A stretch of 64,000 nucleotides of DNA from Atractiella rhizophila. Taxonomy: Eukaryota. The DNA lies in assembly GCA_021432655.1 (NCBI GenBank), contig MU271400.1, forward strand, positions 1 through 64,000, in the 5' to 3' direction. Shown here in pieces: positions 4,252-61,800 of the stretch; the first letter of the stretch is position 1, and the number at the start of each line of letters is the position of its first letter. The notes under the pieces were generated by a model, which saw only the letters and a program-made list of their open reading frames with translations, made no database searches and was not told where the DNA came from. Made by a program: the position numbers and the translations under genes.

Positions 4252-4505
4252 TGATGTGCAATAGGGTCCCAGAACCGTGATCAGGAAAGGATAAATCCAT
4301 TTATAACGATTTATTACCGCGGGAGTGCGGGAGTGGATGCATAAAGAGCTGAGCTGGGGGAAGTGCTGATATGAATAGGTCGACTGCGGGTGTAGCTAGG
4401 CGTGTAAAACGGCGTTTCTGCAGAGGTTCGTTTTGGTTCGGTTTCGCCACTTCCAATGAGAAGTGTGTACTCGCAATTCTGTAGCAATTCTAACTGAGTG
4501 TAATG

Positions 4506-5615
4506 TTACAACTTCGCCTTCGGAGCGGCTAGCTGTTGTCTCATCCGTAACAACCACTCCATAATGGCGTCTACAACAATCTGCGACGTTATTTTAGTTT
4601 CACCTCCCTTTGCAAATAAAACCTTACATCAAACTTCCCAATGAAATTATGATCCGCACCTGCATCGGAAGCCGTTGCACGTTAGTTCATCCCGTGAGAA
4701 CAGAAGACGCACCATCAATAGCTTTGAATTCACTCGTCCCTTTTCCACCACGCACCGAATATATTAGCTGGTAGATCTCCCCATCGTTAAACGGCACAAG
4801 GGTATCCTTAGTCCCATGAAGAGTCAAGACGTGTGTGTGTCGCGGGAATTCAACAATAGTGCGACTTGTATCGAAAGTTGCGAAGTCGATTAGCTGCTCT
4901 CTCGTTCCCTTAAAAGTTTCGCTTTAGCTTTGTGTACCCTGCAAGAAAAAAGAAGGACGAACTCTGTCCCTACGTTTGCCGTTTTTCACTTCTACATAGC
5001 CTACTGTGTCGAATTGCTCTTTCCAAGTATCCAGACGGACAAGGATGCGAGCCATCACATACCGACCAGACAGATTGACGAAGTAGTTTGGAACGTGACG
5101 ACCTGGATGCCTCTTCTTCATCGTACAAAGGTAACGGTTGGCCGTTATGCTCCCACGAGAATGGGCAATAACTATTACAATCAACGTTTGACCGTGAAAG
5201 GAGGACGCGACAAGGCACGAACCTATGTCTGGCCGCCATCCCCTCTGCTCCAACCACGAAAAGAGCGCATCGAAATCTTCCTCTTCTTTCCAGAAATCCC
5301 CCCAGCTCCATTCCCCAGGACTCTCGCCGTTTGCCTGAAAGTCAATCCGTATAGAAGCAATCCCGGCCTTGGAGAGAGCTGAAGCCAAGGAGCGGTGATA
5401 AGTTTGGTTCTTGTGGGCCTGGACACCGTGACATATCTAACCTTTCATTGTCAAAGAAGGACTGCGAGTTGCAGGTAGCGAACCAGTGCAATAGTCTGAG
5501 GATTCAATGCTGAGCCGCCGTTCAGGTTACCGTTGGGTGAACATATGATGCCGATGAGCTGCTGAACAGTGGGATTTGGATGGGGGATCTCAACTCGCTT
5601 TTCTTGGTATGCCAT
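4506..5615 (-). CDS. Alpha/beta-hydrolase, tandem paralog 2; C-terminus ...APKAKL* (PTS1-like)
   Basis: Exon layout matches paralog 1: MAYQEKRVEIPHPNP, RIDFQANGES, IAHSRGS, HGTKDTLVP, GADHNF. Last exon IVVDAIMEWLLRMRQQLAAPKAKL*. Confidence 0.85.
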
Positions 5616-6516
5616 TGGAGCTACTGCAGTCTCAATATCGTCTTCCACTTTCAAGGACCCGTCCCTTTGCAGCTATTTATTCGAAAGCGGCGATGAGACT
5701 GCCGGATTGGAAAGCGAAAACGCCGGAGGCGGGAAATGTACTCAACTAGGTATATGTTAGTTGTTCGTAATATTATGTCGCAGCATGAAGGACAGTACAA
5801 TCTAGTAGCTAGTAGGTAACTTCCCCAGTCTGTGTAGCTCGAACGATTCCGCATGGTCTTGCAGAAAAATCTGATCACGTGTTCGAAAGAAACAACCATC
5901 TTTCATTTCATACGGAATTAGGTGAAGAGTAGGCGGGCAGTTGGACAGGTAGACATGTACCCCTGTAGTATAGACGTAAAGGTGAGTATTGAATGTTAGT
6001 TGTTCGAGCGAACGCCAACTTCTCCCCATTGGAAAGATTGTGGCACAAAATCTGCCAGTGCTCTCAATCAAGGAGCTTGAAACCCATCTAAGTCATGTAA
6101 CACCTTGACTTGAGGTACACATTTTGGAAACATGAAGGTGATAGGCTATCAATGGTTTGTTAGCCTTTCCAAGAATTCGAAAGTGTAACTCTGCATAGTA
6201 CAACAGTTGACAATCAAGCTTCTTTCGGAAAATTTATAGATTCCCCTCTTACCGCTTGAATTCTGCAAACAATTTTGAGGTAATATAAAGATCAATTGTG
6301 TCTCCTCCGAGGGACAAGGGCAGAGGGGTGCCTCCGATCCCGACCGCTCTCTGCTCTGCACTTCTCGCCTCTCGGTTATGTTGCGGAGTAGTGCGGCGTT
6401 CTACCACGCGTCGCTCATATTTAAAGCTTTCAACTGCCTCGTTGGTTTCCCTACTGCACTTCAGCTAGCTAATTGTTAAGAAGACAAAGTCTAGAAACAG
6501 CTGCAATACTTGAACC

Positions 6517-8829: not shown

Positions 8830-11471
8830 CTATTTCTTCTCCTCTTCCACTGGCTTTTTCTCCTCAATCCCCCACTCGCCATCTGTCTCCTCATGCAACT
8901 TGAAAACTCCAAAGAAACACGCCAAAATACCTGCAAAGATGCAAATTCCAAGGCCAGTGTACCAAAGTATACGCAGAGAATCGACGAAGGCTTTCTCTAC
9001 CTCTCCCTTCAGCGGCTCATCTAGCGTCCGGATGACGGGAATGGAGGCATAGGCAATCTCTGCGCCTTGTGGGAATCGGGCAACAAAGGCATCCGGCAAT
9101 CGACCCTTCAGTTCATTTTGGAGGACTGGACGTGAGGGAAGAATAAGAGTCAGCTAATTCATAGAGGAAGAAGCAACGCACTTGTCGCTCCGACGGTGAT
9201 ACCCCATACTTGTCCAAAGGCACGCGAAAAGGCGTGGGAGGCCATAGCCCTTGCATGTAGCCGAGGTTCAAGGGGAGCGACGACGGGGAACACGGTGAGA
9301 GGGAAGAGCGCTTAATAACCAACAACCCCATCAAAAGATAGAAAGCATCCATCAAAATCTTTCAAGGAAATCGAGAGAGATACTCACGCGCGATGCCGAT
9401 GCTGAGCACAATGAGAATGACTACGTAGACTCCTGTTGAGGTATCTACTTTGTATAGCGCTAATAAGCCGGTTCCGAGGGCCATGAAAAACCAGGCTCCG
9501 ATGTTAAGCGTTTTGTATGACTTGGTAACAGCTACGGCAATGCCTCCTACTACAGCCAATGGGCCTGTCGACAGTTACTTGTCAACTCTCTGGGATTTAG
9601 AGAGGAAAGAAAAACCGGCGCACCTGTGGTTAGGGAGAGTGGAAAGAAATCCACCCCAGAGCGAGTGGCTGAGTGTCCTTTGACGGCTTGGAAGTAAACC
9701 GCTGGATGTTCCATGCAGTCAGTACTAATGATTGAAGGCGGTGACGTTTGACAGAAAGAGAGCAACTTACGTCCGTAGTATGTCACGAAGAGTGTCGCCA
9801 GGCCATGAAGGAAAGTATTCACGTAACCGATGAGGGAAGTGCGGTTGGCGAGCTCTTTGACCTAACCGGATGCAGATGGTCAATTCTCGTGGCATGTAGA
9901 AGAGAGAAAGGTTCTCTTACCGGCATAGTAGGTTCAGTAACAACGAATCGCTCCAAAAACACGTAGACAACCATCCCGACGAGACCCAAAATCAAGGGAA
10001 CAAGAATACGCCAGCTGTCCCAGGGGTATTTGACACCTGCCCAGGCGAGAGCGATCATGGCTGACCTAGACAGGGAACGGAACAGGAACAGAAAATGGAT
10101 CAATCCACGTGACCTGAAATGAAATTGAAGAAGCGGAACATACGTGGCAGAAGCGACGAAGAGGACATTTGCGCTAAAATCAATCTTCTTTAACTTTTCT
10201 CGTATAGTTCCTGCAGGAGTTCGTAGCTTGAGGAAGAAGAAAACGGCTGGGAAGGCGAGCCCAAGAATTGGGAGGTTCACTGATTATCCCCACTCGTGAG
10301 ACAAGTTGGTGCACCGGAGGGGTAGAAACGAACTATAAAAAAGCCACCGCCCTGGATCAGATTGATTAGAACGTCCAAACCAATGAAGACTGTGAAGTAC
10401 AACGCACAATTTGAATCGGCGAAAACTCCTCCAAGCACTTGAGGGAAGCGTCAGATGGAGATCCCTTTGGTGGCGTTGGGCTTACAGGGACCGATGGCGG
10501 CTGAAACTGCCCATACAGCTCCTAGGAGACCCATGTACTATCCTTCCATGAGAAAAACGATGGCACTGTCAGGGAGAAGTTCTTACCTTGCCTCTTTGTG
10601 CCAAAGGAACAATGTCACCTGTGCACCATGTCAACCAAGTTGTCCTGAATAATGGACGAGGACTGACATGCGATTTGTTCCGTCAGAGATAGAATTCCTC
10701 CTCCACCTACACCTGAAAGAGAGGAATGAGAATCTAACATGGTATTACAATAAACGACGAACCTTGTACTGCCCTTCCCGCAATCAACATGTTCATACTA
10801 GTGGCTGCACCACATATCACCTAATAATTTCTGCTTGGAATAATGCAGGGACGAAGGTAACAAATACGCACACTACCGACGCCGAAGAACAGCAAACTCG
10901 CCTAAATCCAACAATGAGCCCTAATGACCGGACTGAGAAGAATGAGACACTTGCGATCATGATTGGACGTCGGCCAAAAACATGACTAAGTCCTCCTGAC
11001 CAAGGTAGCCAAGCTGTACTTGTAAGCTTGAGAACGGATCATGTAAGCACGAGCAACAGAGATTTGATATGGGGGAACGTACAGCATAGGCAGAACCAAC
11101 CCAGACGTAATCGTCTCCTCCAATGTCCTCTGCTATGGTCGGCAAGGCGGTAGAGACGCTGGTGAAGTCGAGAGCGGAAAGGAAAGTAGCCAAACACAGA
11201 GCCAAAACGATCAACCAGAACTGGGAGGAGGATCAATAACGTCAACTGGGGTGAGAGTTCGACGCACTTGACGCGTTGGCTTCCACTGCTTGGCCGCTTC
11301 TCCTGTCAACGCACCACCTTCAAGTTCAAGACCAGAAGGCTCTTCTGTCTCCGCCTTGGGATCACGATCATGTTCCCGACCACGATGAGAGGCAGCATCG
11401 AGTTTGGTCGACTCCTCGCTGCTCCGTACGCGGTCCTCCTCAAGCTTCTGCTTCTTCTCAATATCTGTCAT
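8830..11471 (-). CDS. MFS transporter, DHA2/14-TM drug:H+ antiporter-like, many introns
   Basis: LCLATFLSALDFTSVSTALPTIA, YVWVGSAY, GRRPIM, NLPILG, AWAGVKYPWDSWRIL, C-terminal KLHEETDGEWG. Confidence 0.9.
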
Positions 11472-19455: not shown

Positions 19456-21444
19456 ATGGGCGACGCGGCGATCTTTGAGACCTACCTCCAGCTGCTTGAT
19501 TCTATTCGAACCAGCCTCTTGTTTCCTCTCTTGCCTGGTAAATCTTTCTTAACTCAAATTATTAGCATGAGCTGACTTCCTCAAAAGAATGGGCCATAAT
19601 CGAAGCTAAAGTTACAATTGGCGTCTTGGGATTCAGTATCGTCGTCTGGATTCTTGAGTTGTACATACGTTGGAAGAAAGGAACTTTGTGGCTGTACCGA
19701 TGGGAAGGAGGTACGTCTTGCGCTCACTCTACTTTGCTGCCACGATACATTTTCCCATAGATGGTTACTTCCGGCCAAACGTTCATCTGTTTATACCCAT
19801 TCAGATCGTCATTTTCTCCGCTCTTTACATTGTCTACCTCGTCGGAACCATCGAAAGAAATGTATGTCATATTCCTTTCCTCCGTTTTCTGCCCTGCTTA
19901 TTATGTTGTGCTGCCCCACGTTGTATGAAGGTACCAAACGCGGAGCGAGACTGGCGTCCTTACTTCGCGCTTTTCCAAGGCGTCTTCACCGTTCCCCTAT
20001 TCTTAATTGCCGCGCTTTGGACCTGGAACTCTATCCTCTCCTCCTCGTACGCTCGAAAGACGATGCCTATCCAGCAACGTGACGGACACTACAATCAAAA
20101 TCATGATGGGGAGAATGTGACCTTCTGGAGACGGCTCAATCTCAAGCCAAAAATCGTGCACTTCTTCGTCGGCCTGGTCATCGTCACGATGTTGTCGTGC
20201 ATCACCATCTTTGCTATCCTTTCTGCGATCCATCGTGAGAGGGCGATAGTGGATTTTCAGACTCTAAACAATATCCTCCGAGCAGCCATAGCAGGGGAGA
20301 GCGTCGATCTGGCCGTCGTCGGAAGGGTTCAAGCACACTTGCAGAAGGAGGCAGGAGCGTCGTTATTAAATTACAAGAGGTTGACTGCCACCCAGACCGC
20401 CACATTGTTGCTTTTCACCATCCCCTACATCTACTCTGTCCTCCGCCTTTTCCTCGTCCTCTTCTCACAAAAGAGTCACTTCAAACGCGCCATCGAACGC
20501 CTATATGCTTTAGAAGCTTACGATCTTCAGGAGTCTCTTCCCCATCCTACCATCGTACCTCTCCATCCATCTCAAATGGCCCCTAACGACGGATCCACAA
20601 CGTCCGAAGCCTCCTCTGACTTCGCTGGTCTAGCAAGGCCCGCGACGAAGTTGGTACTCGCGCACAAGATGAGGAAGGAGGCTAGAGATGTAAAGTTTGA
20701 CAAGATCACGAATGCACAGTTGGCACGACAGCAGAAGGAGACGGTGGAGAGGATGCAGAGTTGGAGGAGAAGTTACAGGTTGTTGCTCTACATTCATTGT
20801 CTTTCTATCCTCGTCTATACTGGCTTCAAGTGAGATATCCCTCGCTTTCTATTTATGTCTTAAACTTGACTGATGTGGCTCCTTTCATAGCCTTTTGAAC
20901 AGTGAGCAATGGTCATGGGCTGCGTTCATTTCCTTAATTGACGAAGATTTATAGTCGCCAACGCAATCGCTGTTTCGGGAGGAAGCACCTTGAATCAGAA
21001 GCTGTCTACTTTCGTTTCCACGCATCTTCCCGTGTGAGTTGCTCCTCTTCATCCCAGCATGTGTGTCTTATCTTGTGGCCCAGCTATTGCTTCGCCGCAC
21101 CGGAACTCGTGGGGTGCCTCTACCTTCTCTACGACGCTATACGGCTCCCTCCCTCCTCCCCGTCGTCAATCTCACATCCTTCCCGCTCGCTCTCAAATGC
21201 CAATGCTCGCATGGAGGGTTTACCAGCGTCGGGTGGCACAATCGAGCTTGGACGAACACGAATGGGGAGGGCGGATCACGGTGATGATGTTGAAGGGTCA
21301 GGAGGGGATCGCGATGGTGCGATAAGGATCAGTTGGGCCCAGTCCGAGAGGACGGATGAAGCGTTTACTGTCGAAGGCAATGGTGATGGTAGATTCGGGT
21401 GGAGTGAGAAGCAACGGCCGTCGAATTGGGTGCAGGAGGGTTGA
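19456..21444 (+). CDS. Uncharacterised multi-pass (about 7 TM) membrane protein, tandem paralog 1
   Basis: Spliced: MGDAAIFETYLQLLDSIRTSLLFPLLP/EWAIIEAKV...GTLWLYRWEGG/YFRPN...WTWNS...IPYIY...; C-terminus WSEKQRPSNW. Confidence 0.75.
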
Positions 21445-22161
21445 TGATGCCTCTATCATTCTGAATGATGCACTGAGGATGTGATTGTGATTTGGGACAC
21501 ACAGTGACAGGAAAGGTGCTGGATTTCTAGCAGTTCCAGCAGAGTGGGAAGGATCGGACGACAGTGCGAAGTTGAAGCGTGCTTCTTTACAAACGGTTTC
21601 CGAACCTTGCTCCATTTTGGATTTGCACGAACCTTGTTAGTTTGAATGTTGCATCAACACCGCGAAGTACGATAAACTTTCGAATGGTTACGGTCGGTGA
21701 CCTTATTGTTTCCCCATCAAACACTTGAAGCTGCCAACTGCGAGGAGGGGCAAGTTGGAAGGATTGAGATAATGAACGTTACCTTGGCCTGCCTTCTCGA
21801 TGTTATGATTACATTCCGTGTGAACGTCCAACACAGACTGGCGTGGACTCAAGACATCCAGGAGGGGCGAGAAGCCACGCGCAGCGAGGTGGAAGGGGGA
21901 TGCGATGGAACTATGTATTACAAGTCGGAAGTTGGCATTGAACGAGATTGAACAGAACGCGTGAGAGCGCCGATCCATTGCAGCATGAAATTCGCGCTTC
22001 AGGATGGTCAGTCCATCCTCCGACCGACAAAACTGGCACCTGTCCACAAGGAGTGGCTCCTCCATTTCTCCTTTACACTTTCGATTTCGTGCTCTGTCGT
22101 GCTCATGAGGCCCCGCTGAGGCGTTCAGTCAAGGATCCCAGCGCGAGTCCCGAGTCTCAGG

Positions 22162-24434
22162 ATGAGCAACAGTGCCGTCTTTACGCCTTTCCTCGAACAG
22201 CTGCAGGCAGTCAGGAATACGCTGCTCTTTACTCCCCTCCCTCGTATGTTTCCTATTATATCTTTATCCTGCTCGATCTCCATTTCGAATGCTTATCGTG
22301 ACAATTTACAGGCTGGGGCATCATCGAGGCCAAGGTCACGATCGCTCTGTTGTGTGTCAGCATCGTCACTTGGGCTTTGGAATTGTACATACGCAGGAGG
22401 AAGGGAACATGGGTGTATCGATGGGAAGGTGGTACGTCTCAGGCTTGCTCTGCCCCTCCTCGTAACTGTTCTAAGAAATAACTGAATAAGGCGGCTACTT
22501 CCGTCCCAACGTCCAAATATTCATTCCAGTTTCCTTCCTCCTCTTCGACAGCTTCTATATTGTCCAAATGATCGCTGTGATCAAACGCAACGTGAGCGTC
22601 TCCCAGACACAGATTCATATCGATTAACGTTTGTGGCTGAAAATGAGCAGGATGATCCGAACAAGGACTGGATACCCTGGTTCACATTGTTCTACACCGC
22701 ACAGACCGTTCCTCTCATCCTCGCCTCCGCTGCCTGGACCTGGAACTCCCTTCTCGCCTCCAAAGCGATGTCTGAAGACCAAGAGGTGGACCCGTCGAAA
22801 GAGCGTGACGATCGACAGGTCCCATTGTTATCGTCCAAGCCTAAACTCGTCCTCTTATCAGTCATAGCCGTCACCCTTACGGCTATCATCTTGATCTTCA
22901 CATTGGGCTGCCTCTGCGCTGCTCATCGCGAAAACGCAATCCGAGACTTTCAAGCCTTATACGAAATCTTGCTCCAGGCCATTGCTGGTGAAGAGATCGA
23001 CGTTGGATATGCGTTAAGGCTGCAGCAACAGTTAGAGAAGGAGGGCGCCAAGTTGTTAGTCTATTCCAGACGACTGTTGGGGACGATATCCTGCACAATC
23101 TTCTTGATCACTATTCCGTACATTTATGGGCTCATACGTCTCTTCATCTTACTCTCCAACCAACGCTCGCATCTCACCAACGCCATCAAGAGACAAAAAG
23201 AGCTCGCTGCACTCGAATCTCAGGAAGCTACCCCTGCCGCCAGACCCGACGCACGCGATACGCCCTCACGCCAACATCGACCTATCCCTTCGTCTTCGAG
23301 CCATCCAAACGATCCTGCAGCATCGGACGCCTCATCTGAGTTCTCACATATCAGCAGACCATCCAACGCAAAACCATTCGATAAAAACCAGCCAGCTCTC
23401 GAACTGAGCAGCGGTGGGATAGGTGGGACGCTGGTGAGGGATCAGAAGGATCTGGTGGTGAGGATGACGGAGTGGAGGAGGAATTGTGGAGTGGTCATGC
23501 TCGTTCACGGCCTCGCTTCTTTCTCTTATGTTGGTGCAAAGTGCGTCACTTTCCTCTTTCCTTATTCTCTAGCTAGACTGAGTGCAAGCTGATGATGATG
23601 GATCTTCTAGTGTGCTCAATTGTGAGTGGCGGATCTTCCATGATTGGAAATAACGCTGGTGTCTAGTCTTCGGTTTGGCTGCAGCGGTGAACGATGGCAA
23701 CGACAGTCTTCGCCGAAGCGCGAGTTTCGTATTGGCACACGTCCCAATGTGAGTCTTGCTTAGCTCCTGAACGAATTATTCAATTGTACGAACGCATCAC
23801 GTACAGATGGACGATCATCGTCCCCCAATTCTTCGGCTCCATCGCCCTCCTGTACGATGCCCAATCTTCCATGATTGGAAATAACGCTGGTGTCTAGTCT
23901 TCGGTTTGGCTGCAGCGGTGAACGATGGCAACGACAGTCTTCGCCGAAGCGCGAGTTTCGTCTTGGCACACGTCCCAATGTGAGTCTTGCTTAGCTCCTG
24001 AACGAATTATTCAATTGTACGAACGCATCACGTACAGATGGACGATCATCGTCCCCCAATTCTTCGGCTCCATCGCCCTCCTGTACGATGCCCACCGTCT
24101 CCCTGCCAGTCCCTCACCCTCCCATCCCACCTCAAATTCTCAAAACATTCATGGTCAACGACGAAAGCTGACAGACATCGAACTCCAACAGCATGATCAG
24201 AACAGACAACGGTCAGTCTTTGAGGGCTCAGAACCCATACGGATCAGCGTCGCTATGTCGGCGTCGGCGTCCGAAAATAACGATGATGCTTCGACAGTCC
24301 ATTTGTCGGATGATAAACCAGTCGTCGTGGATTTGGCTGCGTCGACGAGGGATGGGGAGGAGCCGAGGAGGGAGACGAGGACGATGATGTGGAATGAGAA
24401 GCAGAGACCTTCCCAGTGGACCAAGTCGCGTTGA
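22162..24434 (+). CDS. Uncharacterised multi-pass membrane protein, tandem paralog 2 (contains a 231-bp duplication)
   Basis: MSNSAVFTPFLEQLQAVRNTLLFTPLP/WGIIEAKV...GTWVYRWEG/GYFRPN...WTWNS...IPYIY; C-terminus WNEKQRPSQW. Confidence 0.75.
23633..24094 (+). repeat. Tandem direct duplication, 2 x 231 bp, one visible mismatch
   Basis: 23633-23863 matches 23864-24094 (atcttccatgattgg...cgatgccca); gtATTGG versus gtCTTGG. Confidence 0.95.
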
Positions 24435-27832: not shown

Positions 27833-30466
27833 TTATCTCTTCCCTCCTCTAACTTTTCCTCTTCCTCTCCCTCCTCCACCTCTCCCTCGTCCTCTTGATC
27901 CTCTGGCCATCTTCCTATCCCAATCCCTCATGCTTTCCTTGTTATTTTCCTTACTCCTCGAATTATTGCTCTTCCCACCGAACCCATACTTGTCGTCTCT
28001 CTTTTTCCGTGATAAACCACCTCTTCCACCACCTCGACTTCCACGGTCTGAGTTTGGTTTACCGCGTTTCGAAGGACGGTCGAAAGTCTTTTCGAGCTCA
28101 ACATCGAAGTCTTCATCGCCTCCAGTAGCGCCAGCAAGGTCGGTGCCCTTCCGCTTCCGCTTCAACTCCTTAACGCGATCAGTGAACGCCTTCTTTTCCG
28201 ATTGTCGCTCCTGCAATACGAAACATGGACCATGAGTACACAACGGACTAGACGATGAGGAGGAGGGGAAGAAAAACCCTCCTCCACCTCTCCCTCGTCC
28301 TCTTGATCCTCTAGCCATCTTCCTGTCCCAATCCCTCATGCTTTCCTTATTATTCTCCTTACTCCTGGAATTGTTGCTCTTCCCGCCGAACCCATACTTA
28401 TCGTCTCTCTTCTTCCTTGATAAACCACCTCTTCCACCACCTCCCCTTCCACGGTCTGAGTTTGGTCTACCCCGTTTCGAAGGACGGTCGAAAGTCTTTT
28501 CCAGTTCAACATCGAAGTCTTCATCGCCTCCAGTAGCGCCAGCAAGGTCAGTACCCTTTCGCTTCCGCTTCAACTCCTTAACTCTATCCGTGAACGCCTT
28601 CTTTTCCGATTGTCGCTCCTGCAATACGAAACATGGTCCATGAGTGCACAACGGACTAGACGATGAGGAGGAGGGGAAGAAAAGAGAAAGGAAAGACGGA
28701 CCTTCTCTTTCGCCTTCTGAACCTCCTTCCCAAACTTCTTCGCCATCCTCAACCTCTTCGCCTCCTCGCTCCTCTTCACCCCTTCTTTCTCCTCCTCCAA
28801 CCTCCTCCTCACCTTCCCCATCTGTACATCCGTCTTAACCATCTCCGCAAAGAAGTCGTCCGGTCTAGTGAACGGGATGTCTTGCTCTTTGCACAGCTGT
28901 CGACCAGCTAGAGCTCCGGCTAGAGAGGCGCGGTAGAAGGAGAGTTCCCGGGCGAGGTCATCGTCGACGGATAGGTTGGGTGGCAAGGCGGAGGAGGATG
29001 TGAGGATGTGGGTATCCCGGAAGGGAAATAGAGAAGAGGAGGATTCCAGTGCCCGAAGAAGGATGGAGAGTGCGGCCTGCAGACGAAAATACATCAGTTC
29101 ACTTCGTATTACGAAAAATTAACGGCAACGGCAAATCGATCCGTGATGATAAATATGATGCTTCCTTCGATACACCGAAGTTACGAAAAAGAGTCAAACA
29201 GCACACTTCCTTCCATTTGCTGCGTCAACAATTGGCTGAGCCAAGCAAAGAGCACCTGAAAAAGTAAGGCGAGGAGGGGATCTTGGGTATAATACATGTG
29301 AAGAAAGCTTGTTCCCTCTTCATGAGCATGTAACAAGCCATTGAAATAATTGATCACAATGACACTGACACACAGCCCACCATATTATGGAGCACATTAG
29401 CAGGGGGCCATCTGCCGTACGTAATACTGACTGCACAAAACTGGAAGTGATGGAGAATTAAGTGAAAGCGTGGCATCCCCATTGAAGAGGAAATGGGGCA
29501 GATAAGGCCGAAAGATAATTGCTATCCTCACGTCTGGTCCTTTCTCACGCAGAAATAGAAAGTAAATGCTGGGAATTTGGTGGGATTCTCCATGAAAACG
29601 CAAAGTGTGGTACAACAGAGGTGTAAGTATTCATAAAGTCGAATGATTCGATGGGTAGAGCGACGCCTAAATAGCTCTCGTCTTCCTCTTCCGAACCAGA
29701 AGCAGCAAGTGATGAGAGAGTTCATCATACTTTCTGCAATTTTTCTAAGTGAATTTTGGCAAAATCATAAACGATTGATGACGAGGAGACAGAAAGTGGT
29801 CGTCCTGCCGTTGTGAGATACAGCGGAAGAAGCTAAGTGCATTCTCTTCTCGGTCATAGAAATGACAGGGTAAACACAGTGGTGGTATGGAATAGAACCA
29901 TTTTGGCTGAGGGAAAAAAGACTGACCGGGTCGTTTTTTGACACTTTTTGGGTTTCCGTTTCTCCCTCCTCCTCTTCCTCGCCGTCTTCATCTTCGTCCT
30001 CATCCTCATCCTCATCCTCTTCCTCTTCCTCTTCGTCCTCTCCCTCAGCCTTGTCACCCTCGATGGCCTTCCTCAGCCCCTCCAACTGATCCTCTCCAAT
30101 CTCGTCCTCATCCTCGTCTTCCTCTTCCTCTCCCTCTCCTTCAGACAATCCATCACGCAACATCCCCTCCAACTCGTCCACCTCGCTCCCCAAGAGCTCC
30201 ACCATCCGCTCCATCGCTCCTTCCACATCGTCTTCCTCATCTCCATCCTCTGCAGCACCCTCCTCTTCCTGCTCTCCATCTGACTCTTCGGCTGCTACTG
30301 GCGCTTTTGGCGCTTCTGGCAAATCTGCTTCTACCATTTCGACGTCTGAGGGTTTGGAAGATTTGGGAGATTTTGAGGATTTAGACGGTTTCGAAGTCTT
30401 TTTGAGCTTTGCAGACGTTGAAAAAGCTGGTTTCCCCAAGCTGGTACGCGCTTTTGAAGGGGCCAT
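27833..30466 (-). CDS. EBP2: rRNA-processing protein Ebp2
   Basis: Acidic N-terminus, DDDLARELSFY, IPFTRPDDFFAEMVKTDVQMGKVR, KKFGKEVQ, KRDDKYGFGGK...SKEN. Intron of about 850 nt (29077-29926). Last exon is duplicated. Confidence 0.95.
27869..28683. repeat. Tandem 2 x ~408 bp duplication covering most of the EBP2 last exon plus its acceptor; copies about 6% divergent
   Basis: 27869-28276 versus 28277-28683; about 24 substitutions by manual count, nearly all synonymous. Confidence 0.93.
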
Positions 30467-51822: not shown

Positions 51823-53005
51823 TCATGCGTTGCTTAAGTACTCCGCAAACTTCTTGGGCTTCCATTCTGGCCAAACTTTGACAGCATTGATCCTGTCCGA
51901 AGAGTCGCCAGGTCCTAAATCGAAAGTACTCGTCCCGCAACCCTCATCAACCTAGAAAGAAAGGTTATTCCCTGAAGATGACGAATAGAGGGAAACCAAC
52001 ATAAAGGAGAAAGAAGTTGATAAATCCCGCAAGATCTTGCGTAAGGGGAAGGTCGTCCTTCGTCACATGGACGACTTCAGCATCGTATTTGTTCTTCAAC
52101 ATTTCCTGCAGCAAATCATCGGCGAAACGCCTAACGGTCGAGAGAGGGGGGAAACATACAGCAACCTCTTTGACGCTCAGACGATCTCCTTCCAACCTCC
52201 AAATAGAATTATACAGCTGCTCGTCTGGGAGGGTGGTCAACGACCAGGCGACGAAGCGACCGACGTCGACGAAGGATGTGATGCTGACGATCCTGTTCTC
52301 GTTCAAGACCCTCACTTTCTCTTTCCCGAACAGCCTGCAGAAACAGGAATAAGTATGCTTTGCCATCTCATGATTGCAATGAAGGACGGGGGTTACCAAG
52401 ACACATATTCCGCAAAAAGACCGTTGAGGTAGATGGCAGTCGGGATTCCTTGCTCTTCTGCCAGCTTGCGAATAGTGAGTTTCGCCGCAAGAGGGGAGTT
52501 TTCTGTCCATTGAATCAGATCAATGCTCCATTTCTTGACTGAGGTTGAGGACAACTTCACCTTTGGGAATAACACCAAATTCGGAGGGAACGAAAAGCTT
52601 GATTCCCACTTGCTTCACTGCTTGAACTAAAGGCTCCTGCGCCAGTAGATTCCCAGCGATGGTGCTGATTAAGACCTCAATCTCCTTGCCTCGAAGAGAA
52701 GCGGCAATAGTATCCGACGAAGTGTAGTCTACTTTAAGTCCTCAATCTCCTTGCCTCGAAGAGAAGCGGCAATAGTATCCGACGAAGTGTAGTCTACTTT
52801 AAGTACTGTGATATTTGGATGAGAAGGAATGTCAGGTTTGTCCTGGCGACTAAGGATGAATATCTTTGGGACTGTAGGGAGGTCCAGAAACTGAATTGTC
52901 ATCTCAGAATCCATCGTGAACAGGAGAAGATGGGCCTACACTTTGCAAGAAAGCCTTGGAGACGGCTCCAGATATTCCAGCGATGGCGAAGGTTTTGAAA
53001 GGCAT
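51823..53005 (-). CDS. NmrA-like/isoflavone-reductase-like NAD(P)-binding protein, copy 1 (interrupted by a 65-bp duplication)
   Basis: MPFKTFAIAGISG, VDYTS, IEVLISTI, GIKLFVPSEFG, YLNGLFAEY, ITSFVDVGRFVA. Confidence 0.88.
52675..52804. repeat. Exact tandem duplication, 2 x 65 bp, frameshifting NmrA copy 1
   Basis: 52675-52739 is identical to 52740-52804. Confidence 0.95.
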
Positions 53006-54196
53006 GTTTGAGATATTTGCTTTTGGGCTTCAAGCTGAGTTTCTTTTGATGCAGCTACCTCATCCTCCCTCGTCCCCTTTTAAATTAGCTCAGATTCCGT
53101 AGATGTCGCCACGTCTCGCCCTGTTATCGTGCATTGAGGGGACGTGCAGTAATTAATGATTAGTAATCATCATCAGCAGCGGCGAGGGTGCAGCGGTCTG
53201 AAGTGGACTAGGTGAGCATGAGATTGGTGCCCTTCCTGTAGTTCTACTTGGACCTTGCGTGATCACGACACCGATCCCTGCGCCTTCACAATGCAAAATC
53301 ATTTGACATGAATGAAGTATGGGAAAGAAGAGCAGGTCGGATAGTAACCATGTAGCTTCTATAATGGGAGAACGGCAAACTTTCGGGCCTCACTGCCCGT
53401 CTCATCTCATTCGTTCGTAGCGGTTAATGAACTCGGCGCGTTCAAGCTAGTCGATGTTTGTTGGATTGGGTTTTCCAGGCCGTTCATGCCCGAAGTGACT
53501 GCTGGTTGTGACAACTTGGACAACGGTAAGCCTCCATGGCCGCACCAGGTTCTGTGCTCATTCATTTATACCACTTAATGAACTCGGCATATTCAAGCCA
53601 ATTAAGCCTTGTTCACGAAGCTGGTATTTCGTGTTCGGGCCGTTTGAACCCGAAAAGTTCAACTACCTAGATGTTGCCTTGTTAAGCAAATCTCGAAACA
53701 GTCTTTCCGCAAGTCTTCTCAGTGTTGATAACTAGCATGTCCGCATGGTCCAATTGCGGTAACACTTTTGACCAGAAGCAGAATAATTATTGTGAGCAGA
53801 AGAAAAATTATGCTGCTGCGCCACGGTTGATGACACATAGTCAGCCTAAGGTGGCTTGCGATTCCTTATTGTGCACGCGAGAAGCAAAATGCAGGCACCA
53901 CGATTCAAGCGGACTTCTGCAGGTATAAGAGAATCATAACCAGAAACCTAATAAGACGAACCAGGTCACCATAATTGCAGTTCTTCTCATTTGTCCCTTC
54001 TTTCGTAAACAACATATAACTGCGACTGAAGTAAGGTCCAATAGTTCAAAAGAAGAGATACCCATTATCAGTCCTTGTTAACAACATGCCTTCAGCTGAA
54101 ACGAAGCAACCTCTTTCGTTTCCTCTTTCTTATTTATTTCCTAACGCCTATCATTCCAGAACTTTATGGAACTATAGTGTTAGTACCAAGTCCGTT

Positions 54197-55644
54197 TCAT
54201 GCGCTGCCTAAGTACTCCGCAAATTTCTTGGGCTTCCATTCTGGCCAGACTTTGACAGCATTGATGCGCTCCGAAGAGTCACCTGGCCCTAAATCGAATG
54301 TAGTCGTCCCATAACCGTCATCGATCTGCAAAGAAATGTTATTTGAGCGAAGCTGCTGAAGAAAGAACAACAAACATGAACAAGAAGAAAGTTGACAAAG
54401 CCCGCAAGATCTTGGGTAAGCGGGAGGTCATCCCTCTTCACATGGACGATTTCACCACCATATTTGTTCTTCAGCAATTCCTGCAGTACGGACTATCGGT
54501 GAATACCTAACAGTTGAGAGAGAGGGGAAACATACGGCAACCTCTTTGATGGTCAGACGATCTCCTTCCAACCTCCAGATAGAGTTGTACAGCTGCTCTT
54601 CCGGAAGCGTGGTCAACGACCAGGCGACGAAGCGACCGACGTCGACGAATGATGTGATGCTGAGGATACTGTTCCCGTTCAAGACCTTCACTTTCTCTTT
54701 CCCGAACAGCCTGCAGAAACAAGAATAAGTCTGATTGACATCTCATGGATGCAACAGGAAGGACTGGAGTTACCAAGACACATATTCTGCAAAAAGACTG
54801 TTGAGGTAGATCGCAGTAGGTATTCCTTCCTCTTCTGCCAGCTTGCGAATTGTGAGCTTCGGTGCAAGAGGGCTGTTTTCTGTCCGTTGAACCATGTCAG
54901 TGCTCTATGTCAAATTTAAATGAGTTCGAAGTCGACCTCACCTTTGGGAATTGAACCGTATTCAGAGGGAACGAAAAGCTTGATTCCCGCTTTCTTCGCT
55001 GATAATAGGAGAACAGGCATGAAGTAAGTACGGTTGATTACACGTACCGCTTCAACACCCACCCCTTAATAACTTCACTAGTGCGTTCCCCGTTCATCTC
55101 GACGACCTTCCCCTGGTTAGACTACGAGTGGAGTAGGTCGGGCGGCACCGTGGGGAGCGGCGACGACTAACTGCTAGTGGTTAGTACTTAGTGACGTTCA
55201 ACGAAGTTACGCGCCGTTGTCACGCTCTGTACCGCTGTAGATACCTTAGACTCGCTGAAATTTTTCCCTACTCCTACTCCGTCGACGTAGTCGAACTTCG
55301 AGTGTTCGTTTTGTAGAGTCTGTACTGAAAGTTCTGGAAGCGGTAGCGACCTTAAAGACCTTGGCAGAGATTCTGAAAGGACGTTTCACATCCAAATAGA
55401 GGGAGAACAAGTTTCGCCAAGGGACTTCACCGTTAGGTCAAAGAGCTGGAGGGTGCCCAGGGCTTCTATATGTAAGAGTCAGCGGTCCTGTTTGGACTGC
55501 AAGGGAGTGTAGGTTTGCAGTAACAGGAATTTCATCTAATAAGGAGCGGTCTATAGTAACGGCGAAGATAAGTCCCGTTCCCCTAACTCCAGGACTAGTC
55601 ATGGTAACCACCCTTAGACGATCGCGTCCTTGGCAACCAATTTC
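54197..55644 (-). CDS. NmrA-like protein, copy 2; 3' part normal (54197-55001), 5' part present only as reversed sequence (55002-55644)
   Basis: 3' exons are highly similar to copy 1. The complement of 55323 onward reads ATG ACT TTC AAG ACC TTC GCC ATC GCT GGA ATT TCT GGA (MTFKTFAIAGISG). Confidence 0.85.
55002..55644. other. Segment reversed without complementation (mirror orientation)
   Basis: Read backwards from 55644 it continues 55001 in frame (LLAQEPLVKAAKKAGI) and matches the 5' end and promoter of NmrA copy 1. Confidence 0.95.
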
Positions 55645-56198
55645 NNNNNNNNNNNNNNNNNNNNNNNNNNNNNNNNNNNNNNNNNNNNNNNNNNNNNNNN
55701 NNNNNNNNNNNNNNNNNNNNNNNNNNNNNNNNNNNNNNNNNNNNNNNNNNNNNNNNNNNNNNNNNNNNNNNNNNNNNNNNNNNNNNNNNNNNNNNNNNNN
55801 NNNNNNNNNNNNNNNNNNNNNNNNNNNNNNNNNNNNNNNNNNNNNNNNNNNNNNNNNNNNNNNNNNNNNNNNNNNNNNNNNNNNNNNNNNNNNNNNNNNN
55901 NNNNNNNNNNNNNNNNNNNNNNNNNNNNNNNNNNNNNNNNNNNNNNNNNNNNNNNNNNNNNNNNNNNNNNNNNNNNNNNNNNNNNNNNNNNNNNNNNNNN
56001 NNNNNNNNNNNNNNNNNNNNNNNNNNNNNNNNNNNNNNNNNNNNNNNNNNNNNNNNNNNNNNNNNNNNNNNNNNNNNNNNNNNNNNNNNNNNNNNNNNNN
56101 NNNNNNNNNNNNNNNNNNNNNNNNNNNNNNNNNNNNNNNNNNNNNNNNNNNNNNNNNNNNNNNNNNNNNNNNNNNNNNNNNNNNNNNNNNNNNNNNNN
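55645..56198. other. Assembly gap (554 N)
   Basis: Run of N. Confidence 1.
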
Positions 56199-56952
56199 GT
56201 TCTTGTAGAGATAATAGTTCCGACTACAAAGGCTGGACCTAGTTTAGCGAGTTCGCCGGTTTCTTCATCTCCGAGTCAACTTGCCGTTTCCAGAGCTATA
56301 AGACCACTTGTTCAAGCATAATGGGGAGAATTTATCATTTGTGAGTTTAAGAAAAAGTCACGACCGTAGTGACCTTGAGGAGTCCCACGTCTGCATTACT
56401 GGAAGGGGAAGTGGAGGTTGTGCCGCCTTCGGAAGTGTCTTCGCAAGTCTCAGTTGCAGCAACCCGGGTAGCTCTGATGTTTCCGAAAGGATGGCGACGA
56501 ATCCTTCCCTCATCTGTTCTTTTAGCAGAAGTAGAGGAGGTTGGAGCCTGAGGTCATGTTCCAACCGTGTAGCGAGCTAAAACTACGCTTGTTTCAACCT
56601 TACAGACCTGGCATGAGACAAAGCTTCTGCCGCGAGTTATACCGTTCAGTATTCGAACGTCAGCTCGAGCCTTTTCTTCCTAAATAACAGAAGGAGGAAG
56701 TAGGACCGACCCATTCGAAGCAAGAAAGGGAGGTAAAGGTGGACTGAGTTTCTAGTAATGTCCAATTCTGACTATACCCATAGAGAAGAAAGAAAACTTA
56801 ATAGCCTCCGAGATTGATACAGTTGTCCTTGCCTAATACGGGGATACTGGGGTCTTCTCTCGTAGTTCGAAGTCAACCTGTTCAATGTGAGCAACTGTCT
56901 CTTTCTTTCAAGCCAGAAGACCCGGCGACTACCCGAGGGACAACCTAAAATT
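56199..56952. CDS. Hidden short-chain dehydrogenase (C-factor/sniffer-like SDR), 5'-truncated, readable only as the complement (not reverse complement) of the given strand
   Basis: Complement translates to KNISIIKADVSDLDQIAQAAKEVEAQLNGKGLDILVN/NAGI...FRVNVVGPIETTKAFLPLLRKGVDKKIVFISS...PYSVSKTALNM...ELGKEGFIVFLLHPGW/VKTDMG/TDYAPMTPEESI...DGLPVGF*, with three GT-AG introns. Confidence 0.92.
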
Positions 56953-58889
56953 CCATCATTTAACTTGGTAGGGACTGGTTAACAGAACTACGGTCAAAGT
57001 TTGTACTAACCCTTCAGCGGTAAAGGTTAAGCCGCGCTGAGAATGTTATCTCTTTGCGTGACAAACAGGGCAAACGCCAAGAAGAAGACGGTAAACTTAC
57101 AAGGGGAGAACCGAAGTGGTGCCGGATACTATAGTCTCGAGACCTCCACTGCTGTCTCGCCACTCTTTTTTGTCTTGGAAGATGTTAAGACATATTTCCC
57201 TTCAGATTCAACTGGCGGCAGCTTTAAGACAGATTCTCGTCTAAAACCTCAATTGAGCACAACCCGTCCGTTTAGCATGCGAGTTAAGCAATTGCTTATT
57301 CGACTCGAAGCCTATAAAAAACGGAGACTGAGTAGTAAGTTGTTAACCGATCTACAAGACGTTAGTTCAAATTCCCTATGATGTGATCGATACACAGTCC
57401 AACACTTCCTTCCTGTTTATCTATTACCACTCGGATGACCAATACCAAGAGAGTATGCACGGTTCAGGCAAACTTAACATTGCAGACGTAAAATAAAGTG
57501 CGGACGTGCTATGTCTAAAACACAATGTTGAATAGGAACGTACGCTCCTTAGCTAGCGCTGCGAGATTTGATGCAGATGAAGGATCCCGAGCTAGCGCAA
57601 AGACGGTGTTGTTGGAATCTGAGGACAGTTGCCTAACATACTCGAGACCTATACACCTTCAATGAGCTCGGTTTGCATGAAAATAACACTGTACCCAATC
57701 CTCGAGACGATCCGGTAATAGCGTAAGACTTTCCAGCCATATTTGTTGTTGGTTTCAGAGATGATCAAGGAGATTAAGAGGTTTTGTGGAGCTGTGGGAT
57801 TCCCTGTTGGTCCTGGAGCCCTTTTAAAGCATTTATAAAGCCCGACGATGAAGGCTGATTATTAGGCAACTCCGAAGAGTTCCAGTAAGATTCTTTCATT
57901 TCATCGCACTTTCTCTTCACTCCTGTAGGACTCTACGGCTCAAAGAGTGTGCAGTCGTTGATAACCGCGGGTCGGCGTTAAGGCCGCCTTCTCATCCAGG
58001 AATAGACAGAAAAGTACTGTACATATCTTACACCGTGCGCAATGTTTTATCTCAAACGCTGACGACATGAAGCAGCGGTTGGCCTGGGAAACAGTGAAGC
58101 ACTGTACATATGCTTCGGTGACGGGTTGCGCCCGTTACTTGACTTTGGTTTCCTGAACGAGGAACAACTGATGGATTGGACGACGTGCCCATCTGGTCTA
58201 CATGAATCGGAAGCCGACCCGTCAACGTACTGGTGAAGTAAGCCAGCGGGCACCATGAAAAGAACACACCACAGATCATAATGGAGTAACTCTTTTGAAA
58301 CAGCGCGACCGGGCATTTGCGTTCTCTATGACCCTGGAATGCTGGAGCAATGGAGCAGCCACGTTTGAGGCCACGACGATGTGTTACTTTGAAGCTATGG
58401 CCTTCATTCTGGCTCCTACTCTTTTATTCGCACAATAATAGCCAAAACGACAAGGCGCAGCGAAAAATTAGAGTCTTAAGAAGAGAAACAGAGATCTGCT
58501 TGAGGCAGCATGAAGTTAGCATGGGAAATCCTAGAGTGCATGGCAACTTGTAGTTCCTGCCTCCGTGGAATCTACTTGCACAAATCTGCATACTATGAGA
58601 CAGTAACAGATGGCTTTCCTAAGGTTAGAGCGAGGAAAACATCAGGCGTTCAGACAGCGCGGATGACAATACCTGTCAATTACCGTTCTCGATTCGACTC
58701 CGGCCTGCTTCTTCATCTCATATGTTTTGGAATAATGCAGCTTTCATGCTGATCATTATTCGAGAGTAGGCGGAGAAATCATAACTTGAAGTGAATGAGA
58801 CAGGCAGGACCAAGGTTCGGACAGTTTGAGAGTCGGCATTTTATGAGCGCAACGTTCAAGACGCGTTCGTTGTTCAGAATCGGTACAAC

Positions 58890-61800
58890 ATGCCCTTCGT
58901 ATACCATCCTACGCCTTCCCCTGGCCTTTCCTACTTCTCTGCTCTGCCTCCCCCGTCACCACCCGTTCTTCCCCACGTAATCTCGAACTTGCGCATCCCA
59001 AAAGCGACACAGGCACTTCTGCCAACCCCATCCACTTCGAGCTCCTCGACCCATCCAACACGAGTTTATTACCATGAGAGTGACGAGGAACTTGTATGGC
59101 ATCGTTCTACGGTTGTGCATTCGAGAAAGTCAACCATTTACAGGATCTATGATCTTGCCAGTTACAAGGAGAAGGTCTCTTGTGCGACTTTTGGGATGTT
59201 CGAAATCTCATCAAGCAAAACCTTCTTGTACGAGACATCCACGACATTTCTCGGTTCGAGGTTCACGCTCGAGACCGCCTTGAATGCTCACTCGAAAGAA
59301 GAAGAGGAGAACCCAATTTTCGGACCCTGGCTTTCTCCTCCAGAACCAAAACCATCTTTTGAACCTGTACCGCAACGAGGTCTTCTGATAATCTTGGAGC
59401 GTCTAATGCTCGTCTACTTCCCCGATGGACGAGACTTCCTTCTCCGCGTACCATTCCCCGTTGCAGCAGTTGCGACTCTGCGAGTCGGGGTTCTCCTTGA
59501 AGCCGCGACGACGAAGCGGAGCACCTCAATATTTGAGCAGGACGAAGAGGAAGCGGGAGATGTTCCACGCTTATACTCTACCACCACTCCCTTACAGGAA
59601 CTTCGGCCGGTCGGAGGTATTGAGGTAGATGATCGGCTAGTCTGGGCAGAAGACAGTTGGTTGGTTTCGACGAAAGAGAGGGAGGGAAAGATTACAATCT
59701 GGGAAGTGAGAGAGGCGGAGGTGGTGGAAGATGACGATGAGGGAGATGGGAAGGAGAATGAAATGATTCTCGAGGAGTTAGACAATCCCCAAAGCAAGAT
59801 GCTAGATATCGAGCAACATTTCCTTTCGAGTCGACAGCATGGAAGGTATCAATTCCTTCTCAGTCCTATGTTCAACATCGCCACAGATATACCATATACG
59901 TTCGTATTATTTTCATGACTAAGAGGTAACAGTTGACTAAATCTGATCATCATAGTGCAAAAGAAATAAAAGTGACTCGCGGCAACGACGTCCTCATCAT
60001 CACAACCCCGCGCTCAACACACTCACTCACTTTCGCTCCTTCCACCTCTCCTTCGTCAAACGAAATCTCCATCACTGAGTCTACAACCTTTGGAGAACCG
60101 TCCGTCCATACAACTGTGCGAACGCCGTACGGATCATCCGTTCTTCGATCCAACCCAGACAGGGGAACGGTCACCGTACTGGACCAAGGAGTGGAGGTCA
60201 GAGGTTCGATAGAAGGCGTACGATTCGTGGATAATCTAGCGCGCGACGGCTGGAAGGGTCTGAGACGGGTATTGGAGAGCGTGAAGGACTTATTTGGGGT
60301 AGAGAGGTGGAGTAAAGTCGAGGAAGGAGGATGGGATGCACTACACGATGTCTTAATTGGTCCGTCTGGCCCAGGAAATTCGAAGAAAGGAGCTGCGGAG
60401 GTGTGGGAGCGCTTCTTGGCCATGGAACGAGGAGAGGTGTTGGAGGAGGAAGAAGATGAGGAAATGATGCGCTTTAGAGGGGGAGAGAAAGAATGGCTGG
60501 AAGCGCTGATGATGCCTCTTCACGTGGTCTTTCAGGAGTTCCTTCTCTTTGAGAGTCAGCACGCAGATGCCCGGAGGCTGGGCAATGTGATGGTGGACTT
60601 AAGTAGGAAGGTAGGATGGGTAGATTGGTGGGATTATTACATTCGGTTCGGTGGGAAGGAAAGCTACACGGGTACCTGGGGAGGTATGTTGTTCATCTTT
60701 ACATCCTTCCTTTGTTGAAACATCTCTGTTTGAGCATAGAGTCTATCACCCATCCACCGCCGCCAGACTTCCTCGACTCCTTCCGCGTTGGTCTTCGCAA
60801 TCCATCAGATATCTCTCCAGAGTTGTTCTCATGGGTTCCTCGCCCGTCACGATTATACGATATCGCGAGCGTTGCTCTGGCTTCCCGAGACGGATTGCAA
60901 GACGTAGACAAATACGCACGAATTTCAGCCCTACTGTTGGACGCCAATTTTTGGACTGCAGAAATGGTCGATGATCTCTCTTTAGGCTTCAGGGCCGTGG
61001 TTTCTGAAGTCATCGCCGTCATAAGACGATTCCCAATCCCAAATTTGGACAAGTCTCTTTCTGAATTGATCGGCAGAGAGGATATGAGGATGATGGCTCC
61101 GGATACGAATAAGAGGTTGGATTATAAGGACATGTGTGAGTGGAAGAAGTGGAGTCCTTGGAGGAATCTAGAGAAACCTATAACGTTCCCGACAATAAAT
61201 CCTGTCCCTCACTTTTGGAAGAAGCCGTCCTCTCCACCATCTCAACCGGTCCATACCCAAAACATCAGATTCTCGAAAGATCGTCGACTCGAAGATGTCG
61301 CAAGGATCTTGCAGTACATTGAGCCTGTCACTCTTTCGGTTCCATCTTTACAACAAGATCACAATATCCCCAGCCGAACAAACACGTACATGGGACATTT
61401 GGCACTCAGGACTCTCTCTCTCCAGCTCGGTTTTGCCATGTATACTTTCCGGTCGCGGATGGCTCCGGAGGAAGGGATGGTGGATAAATTCGCCTTGAAG
61501 ACTCCTATCTGTCTTTTTGCCAGGTTGTTACCGGGAAAGAGTTTGACCAAGTACGAAGACCCGAGTTTGAAGAAAGAATGGCCCACATTTCATCACGGTG
61601 TCGCCAGCGCGCTCATGTCGATTTATCCATCCGATCTCTCCGATATACCAGTCACTTCTCTGCATGCTACAGGGGACCGTGATCCCGCTCACGGAGGTGC
61701 CTTGTTGGGAATGGGATTAGCTGGTCTTATGAGGAGGATGACTAAGTTTCAGGCATTTCGACACCTCACTGAGAAAGAGAACTTTACGACAATCGGTATT

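What the first reader, a model, noticed from the sequence alone, without database searches (positions are those of the whole stretch)
55002..55644. Mirror-image DNA: the 5' half and promoter of NmrA copy 2 are written backwards (reversed, not complemented)
Seen: NmrA copy 2 breaks at 55001 (...tttcttcgctg). Reading 55644 back to 55002 without complementing gives ctttaaccaacggttcctgcgctagcag..., which restores the frame (LLAQEPLVKAAKKAGI versus copy 1 LLAQEPLVQAVKQVGI). It also supplies the start MTFKTFAIAGISG and about 270 bp that align to the copy-1 upstream region (for example ctcagattcc-tagatgtcgcca and atcagcagcggcgaggg). Established: inversions give reverse complements, and no known polymerase or recombinase makes a reversed-only copy. 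Inference: this is a software orientation error during gap filling. If it were confirmed in DNA it would be extraordinary.
Basis: partly seen in the sequence, partly recalled or inferred. Interest (0 to 1): 0.8.

Follow-up and report, generated by a model that had tools for sequence, protein, structure and literature searches.

The report
Backwards-written DNA beside assembly gap
Two stretches on either side of an assembly gap in this fungal genome record were written backwards by a data-processing error, which hides two ordinary enzyme-type genes; it is a fault in the record, not biology.

Summary
Observation confirmed; it is an assembly artefact. Read backwards without complementing, 55002-55644 aligns to NmrA copy 1 (77-81%; score 527 against at most 30 in 200 controls). 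An allelic contig of the same assembly (C712, no gap) holds both pieces in normal polarity (92-98.5%), and the junctions match base for base. Read-derived contigs of two DNA runs (one sample) leave the window exactly at 55001 and 57543 and continue with the turned-round letters. Turned round, both genes are intact (281 and 252 aa; 274/281 and 250/252 identical to the alleles). The fault is systematic: 9 of 19 sampled gaps have a mirrored flank, about 2.7% of 851 kb (non-random sample), with no strong block away from a gap. Likely cause (inferred): a long-read gap filler complemented minus-strand extensions without reversing them. The scan noted this before on other pieces of this genome. Raw reads were not seen, and the software was not identified.

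The parts
55002..55644 (.). Left gap-flank piece, written reversed in place without complementing (643 bp). Its true left end is 55644, which joins 55001.
   Evidence: 21/21 bases each side of the junction equal C712 at both C712 copies; loose end behind 55001 in X1 and X2
55645..56198 (.). Residual assembly gap, 554 N. Pieces plus gap = 2541 bp against 2595 bp in the allele.
56199..57542 (.). Right gap-flank piece, also reversed in place without complementing (1344 bp). Its true right end is 56199, which joins 57543.
   Evidence: 98.5% and 96.0% to C712; 202-letter loose end before 57543 in X1 and X2; 30 letters shown
54197..55001 (-). 3' part of NmrA-like gene copy 2, normal polarity (four introns)
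   Evidence: the two 3'-most introns are skipped in run X3 contigs (table 5)
55323..55644 (.). 5' part of NmrA-like copy 2 (start codon, intron 1 at 55389-55439, most of exon 2) inside the mirrored piece; whole gene 281 aa when turned round
   Evidence: Pfam PF05368 on the allelic exon, 30.0 bits, cut-off 27
55002..55322 (.). Upstream region of copy 2 inside the mirrored piece, homologous to the copy-1 upstream region
57543..57740 (-). 5' part of a short-chain dehydrogenase/reductase (SDR) gene, normal polarity (start 57740, intron 57694-57649)
56199..56952 (.). Rest of the SDR gene (three introns, stop at 56952) inside the mirrored right piece; whole gene 252 aa when turned round
   Evidence: Pfam PF00106 on two allelic exons, 27.5 and 46.4 bits, cut-off 26.6
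51823..53005 (-). NmrA-like copy 1 (the paralog used as reference; 3' end approximate, by homology to copy 2), frameshifted after 75 aa by a 65-bp tandem duplication at 52669-52807

Best explanation
Assembly artefact. SHOWN: the organism's DNA at this locus is an ordinary arrangement (NmrA-like copy 2, intergenic region, SDR gene). In the record, each of the two sequences that border the gap was written back to front in place, not complemented. The same happened at about half of the sampled gaps. INFERRED: the scaffold first had a gap of about 2.5 kb. A gap filler extended both flanks, did not join them, and shrank the N-run by the lengths added (643 + 554 + 1344 = 2541, against 2595 in the allele). 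When the local consensus came out on the minus strand, the program complemented it but did not reverse it, which gives exactly a reversed-only copy. That predicts that only some extensions are hit, on either side of gaps, as seen (5 left, 7 right). A PBJelly-type long-read filler fits best, but the program was not identified. Confidence: artefact 0.99; gap-filler step 0.9; strand-dependent slip 0.65; PBJelly specifically about 0.6.
For: Allelic contig C712 (no N) holds both pieces in normal polarity, twice, at 92.1% (left) and 98.5/96.0% (right). Junction 21-mers are identical on both sides at 3 of 4 comparisons and 41/42 bases at the fourth. Contigs of runs X1 and X2 stop matching at 55001 and 57543, and their loose letters are the reversed ends of the two pieces (table 7). 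Both genes become intact, with GT..AG introns. As written, each piece matches only itself in the 51-Mb assembly, whereas the adjoining normal part has 11 matches. Other gaps: 9 of 19 have a strongly mirrored flank; of 158 segments not touching a gap, only 2 score above 72, and both continue a gap-side block. 11 of 38 gap sides score below -20 against 16 of 2118 background windows. 10 of 12 pieces have a BLAST match when reversed. The reversed-in-place model gives junction-crossing alignments for 6 of 12 pieces, complement-in-place for 0 of 12. The longest ORF is longer after reversal in 12 of 12 pieces. The C30 gap repeats the same two-sided anatomy against its allele C490. 5 of 19 gaps are exactly 25 N; PBJelly defines a gap as 25 or more N and describes flank extensions that reduce the gap (PMC3504050, passages).
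Against: No raw reads were seen, only Logan contigs; X1 and X2 are one sample and may be the source of the assembly. The loose end at 55001 is only 8 letters, and that contig (5 differences in 310 letters in X2) may belong to the other haplotype. A long-read error signature is unclear: 10 indel events in 660 columns in the left piece, but only 4 in 1355 in the right, against 22 in 6454 in normal flanks. 6 of 12 pieces gave no junction-crossing alignment under either model and 2 of 12 had no BLAST match. One piece (C1:260332-265475), when reversed, matches its left flank on the opposite strand (98.4%, 2670 bp), which would also fit complement-in-place. No paper describing such a bug was found.
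Confidence: 0.97

Rival explanations
1. Real mirror-image DNA in one haplotype, made by an unknown process (3'-to-5' or parallel-strand copying).
For: The sequence is written so in the record. Contigs cannot prove the absence of a rare form (caveat).
Against: Both pieces pivot exactly on an N-gap and recur at 8 of 18 other gaps, with no strong free-standing block elsewhere. The allele and the read-derived contigs show normal polarity at both junctions. Turned round, the genes are intact and 97.5-99% identical to the alleles. From established knowledge, polymerases and recombinases keep 5'-3' polarity.
Confidence: 0.003
2. The error arose later than gap filling: a re-orientation or format step (for example a reverse-complement script that skips lower-case gap-fill letters), or handling in the scan's own copy of the genome.
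For: Such steps also act only on filled bases. The original public record was not compared.
Against: A whole-scaffold flip that skips some letters leaves them complemented in place, not reversed in place. Junction tests favour reversed-in-place 6 to 0 of 12. Mirrored and normal flanks occur within one scaffold (C1: 3 of 9 gaps mirrored). One piece (C1:260332-265475) could fit complement-in-place.
Confidence: 0.08
3. An ordinary inversion, or a chance approximate palindrome.
For: Reversed-versus-forward search gives short chance hits (two of 41-43 bp in the window).
Against: The reverse complement scores 25-28, against 527 for reverse-only. The null maximum is 30, and identity to the allele is 92-98.5% over 643-1344 bp.
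Confidence: 0.001

Closest known systems
PBJelly flank extension of unclosed gaps (English et al. 2012, PMC3504050; passages seen)
   Same: New sequence on one or both sides of a remaining N-run, gap reduced by the added length; 25-N threshold; 'overfilled' gaps described. Here the pieces plus N are within 54 bp of the allelic span, and 5 of 19 gaps are exactly 25 N.
   Different: The passages seen describe no reversed-only output. That PBJelly writes overfilled gaps as 25 N is recalled, not seen. The program used for this assembly is unknown.
Documented gap-closing errors (DENTIST benchmark, PMC8848313; passages seen)
   Same: Gap closers can insert inaccurate sequence, overfill or break gaps.
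   Different: The word 'reverse' has 0 occurrences in its main text; polarity errors are not treated in the passages seen.
NmrA-like family (Pfam PF05368)
   Same: The allelic exon scores 30.0 bits, cut-off 27; 281-aa protein with an N-terminal glycine-rich motif.
   Different: Nothing unusual. It is a multi-copy family in this genome (11 matches); function not tested.
Classical short-chain dehydrogenase/reductase (Pfam PF00106 adh_short)
   Same: Two allelic exons pass the cut-off (27.5 and 46.4 bits, cut-off 26.6). TGxxxGxG, NNAG and YxxxK motifs are present (motif definitions recalled).
   Different: Nothing unusual; substrate unknown.
Biological inversions and mirror repeats / H-DNA (recalled)
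   Same: Superficially, a flipped segment or a same-strand mirror match.
   Different: Inversions give reverse complements (not found). H-DNA mirror repeats are short purine or pyrimidine tracts, not kilobase genes that end at an N-run.

Membership tests
Biological DNA inversion | Segment is the reverse complement of the ancestral state | tested here: not met
   Reverse complement scores 25-28, reverse-only 527
Real mirror-polarity DNA | Independent sequence data continue across the junction as written | tested here: not met
   Contigs of X1 and X2 continue with the turned-round letters at both junctions; allele C712 likewise. Raw reads not seen.
Gap-filler flank-extension artefact | Affected sequence abuts a residual N-run | tested here: met
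   Both window pieces; all strong mirror segments in 877 kb touch a gap or continue one that does
Gap-filler flank-extension artefact | Extensions plus residual N equal the original gap size | tested here: met
   2541 against 2595 bp in the allele
Gap-filler flank-extension artefact | Recurs at other gaps of the same assembly | tested here: met
   8 of 18 other sampled gaps
PBJelly output specifically | 25-N gaps among the gaps | tested here: inconclusive
   5 of 19 gaps are exactly 25 N; the paper's passages give 25 N as the gap threshold only
PBJelly output specifically | Indel-rich long-read consensus in the fills | tested here: inconclusive
   Left 10 events/660 columns, right 4/1355, flanks 22/6454; allelic differences confound
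PBJelly output specifically | Assembly methods name the program; its code reproduces the error | not testable with these tools
   No assembly metadata or source code available
NmrA-like (PF05368) | Pfam score at or above the gathering cut-off | tested here: met
   30.0 against 27 on allelic exon L010:3166-3435; window copy 274/281 identical to the allele
SDR adh_short (PF00106) | Pfam score at or above the gathering cut-off | tested here: met
   27.5 and 46.4 against 26.6 on allelic exons; window copy 250/252 identical
SDR adh_short (PF00106) | Dehydrogenase activity and cofactor use | not testable with these tools
   Needs an enzyme assay

The most novel reading that the evidence does not exclude
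A widely used long-read gap filler has an unreported strand-handling fault that writes part of its flank extensions backwards, so that many public draft assemblies, not just this one, carry a few percent of mirror-written DNA beside gaps, with genes that no six-frame search can see. The 2.7% figure is shown only for a sample of this assembly; spread to other assemblies is untested. Real mirror DNA in the cell is put below 0.5%.
Probability: 0.35. Interest if true: 0.35.

Novelty: not a real feature. Interest (0 to 1): 0.1.

Why it matters
Biologically it does not: the two genes are ordinary and intact. For data quality it does. About 2.7% of the sampled bases of this assembly (22,980 of 850,917 non-N bases) are unreadable to gene finders, BLAST and read mappers. 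Genes that cross these junctions look like truncated pseudogenes, and first-stage readers keep flagging them. A simple k-mer polarity scan of gap flanks finds the pieces, and turning them round recovers the genes. If the fault lies in shared software, other assemblies need the same check.

Tried and rejected
Zero contig depth over bins 55042-57381 in X1, X2 and X3 fits the artefact but is not counted as evidence: contigs show presence, not absence, and no contig joins across the stretch. A splice-signal count meant to tell polarity did not work: in the normal control it gave 48 against 55 donors, and in mirrored pieces it leaned the wrong way (72 against 40); dropped. An automatic intron finder gave wrong gene models and was replaced by hand-set introns, five of which (three in copy 1, two in copy 2) match skips in run X3. 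The polarity HMM at its low switching cost gave many short false segments (156 of 158 non-gap segments at scores up to 71.5). I therefore counted only segments above 72, a threshold set after seeing the data; one gap (C2:14006) is borderline at 72.9, and two weak gap-side segments (27, 33) were not counted. 'One block reversed as a whole with a masked centre' was rejected: each piece joins its own flank by its gap-side end. 'Complemented in place' was rejected for the window (0 crossing alignments against 8 and 2). Literature searches for such an artefact (listings and abstract starts only) found only synthetic reversed controls and general assembly papers; one search returned only general assembly papers. 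Supplements were not read; none bears on a claim.

Full report
Observation. The window has one N-run, 554 bases at 55645-56198. Of the four orientations of 55002-55644, only reverse-only aligns to the copy-1 region (score 527; others 25-28). 200 random reversed 643-mers scored at most 30. BLAST places the match at 52621-52738 (80.5%) and 52740-53331 (77.4%).

Extent. A polarity score (5-mer frequency against its complement) is negative in 6 of 128 bins of the window, five of them in 55001-57500. The DNA right of the gap reads as a dehydrogenase only when complemented without reversal. Its first exons lie in normal polarity at 57740-57543 and join in frame to base 56199. So there are two pieces, 55002-55644 and 56199-57542, each reversed in place. 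Each joins its own flank by the end that now faces the gap.

What the DNA really is. The assembly holds an allelic contig, C712, without N. It carries both pieces in normal polarity, twice: left 92.1%, right 98.5% and 96.0%. With the pieces turned round, 21 bases on each side of the junctions are identical to C712 in 3 of 4 comparisons, and differ at one base in the fourth. Pieces plus gap make 2541 bp against 2595 bp in the allele. As written, each piece matches only itself in the 51-Mb assembly. Contigs assembled independently from two public DNA runs (X1 and X2, one sample, possibly the source sample) stop matching at 55001 and 57543. Their loose letters are the reversed ends of the two pieces: 8 letters at the left, 202 at the right, of which 30 are shown. 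These are contigs, not raw reads, and the left contig may come from the other haplotype. The absence of cover over the pieces is not counted as evidence.

The genes. With hand-set introns, NmrA-like copy 2 gives 281 aa (274/281 identical to the allele) and the SDR 252 aa (250/252), all introns GT..AG. Allelic exons pass the Pfam cut-offs for PF05368 and PF00106. Contigs of run X3 (kind not on record) skip two copy-2 introns and three copy-1 introns, which points to spliced RNA. Both genes are ordinary. That the organism is a root-associated basidiomycete comes from earlier scan notes and was not tested here; the short introns agree with a fungus.

How common. I scanned 876,765 bases from 8 of 1998 contigs, mostly large ones and so not a random sample, with a leave-one-contig-out 6-mer model. 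9 of 19 gaps (8 of 18 without the window's own) have a mirrored flank scoring above 72, a threshold set after seeing the background (maximum 71.5). Of 158 segments not touching a gap, only 2 exceed it, and both continue gap-side blocks. 11 of 38 gap sides score below -20 over 300 bases, against 16 of 2118 background windows. The 12 pieces (329-7022 bp; 5 left, 7 right) total 22,980 of 850,917 non-N bases, 2.7%. Independent checks: 10 of 12 have a BLAST match when reversed; 6 of 12 give junction-crossing alignments when reversed in place and 0 of 12 when complemented in place. In four searches, matches elsewhere in the assembly begin or end at the predicted boundaries. The C30 gap repeats the two-sided anatomy against its allele C490 at 98%. 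Against a uniform reading, one piece (C1:260332-265475) matches its left flank on the opposite strand when reversed, and its junction could not be tested. Earlier notes report the same fault on other pieces of this genome; these are unchecked notes and not independent support.

Mechanism. Shown: reversed-only sequence confined to gap flanks. Inferred: these are flank extensions added by a gap filler. PBJelly's paper describes extensions that reduce an unclosed gap and a 25-N threshold (PMC3504050, passages), and 5 of 19 gaps here are exactly 25 N. Complementing a minus-strand consensus without reversing it yields exactly a reversed-only copy and would strike only some extensions, on either side, as observed. 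The indel profile does not clearly show long-read origin, and the program is unidentified. Rivals: a later re-orientation step (0.08) would leave letters complemented in place, which the junction test disfavours; real mirror DNA (0.003); inversion or chance (0.001).

Known or new. Four literature searches found no description of this error (listings only), and the DENTIST benchmark does not treat it in the passages seen (PMC8848313). The library lacks most subscription journals and all software trackers, so this does not show that it is unreported. As biology it is not a real feature. Interest 0.1. The only residual value is quality control: the fault hides genes in this assembly and may affect others made with the same tool (probability 0.35, interest 0.35 if true).

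Noticed in passing
window 52669-52807: A 65-bp tandem duplication frameshifts NmrA-like copy 1 after 75 aa. It is also in allelic C712 (13681-13819); contigs of all three runs end at 52704 and none skips 65 bases, so it is probably real. Copy 1 still shows spliced contigs in X3.
   Followed up: partly
G000:C712 3942-12181 (L009, L010): The allelic contig has an extra unit of about 4.67 kb: a third NmrA-like copy (281 aa, intact) and a second SDR copy whose 5' match stops after 162 bp. It could be copy-number variation by unequal crossing-over, or a misassembly.
   Followed up: partly
G000:C1:260332-265475: Mirrored piece beside a 25-N gap; when reversed, 2670 bp match the left flank on the opposite strand at 98.4%. 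It could be an overfilled gap from a fold-back read, or a complement-in-place case; unexplained.
   Followed up: partly
G000:C252:34887-36121 and 59376-60005: These match the mirrored piece C1:221539-222777 as written (89-96%), so further mirrored copies of the same repeat exist elsewhere in the assembly.
   Followed up: no
window 53913-53962 and 54019-54062: Run X3 contigs skip two CT..AC stretches (48 and 42 bases) just 3' of NmrA copy 2: introns in a 3' untranslated region or in a small unannotated transcript.
   Followed up: no
window 23633-24094 and 27869-28683: Head-to-tail direct repeats of 231 bp (99.6%) and 407 bp (94%); the first could be an assembly duplication.
   Followed up: no
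window 3242-5617 and 19590-22439: Pairs of diverged direct repeats (66-75% identity), probably tandem paralogous genes.
   Followed up: no
window 9501-10000: One weakly negative polarity bin (-12.6) with no gap nearby; within background noise.
   Followed up: partly
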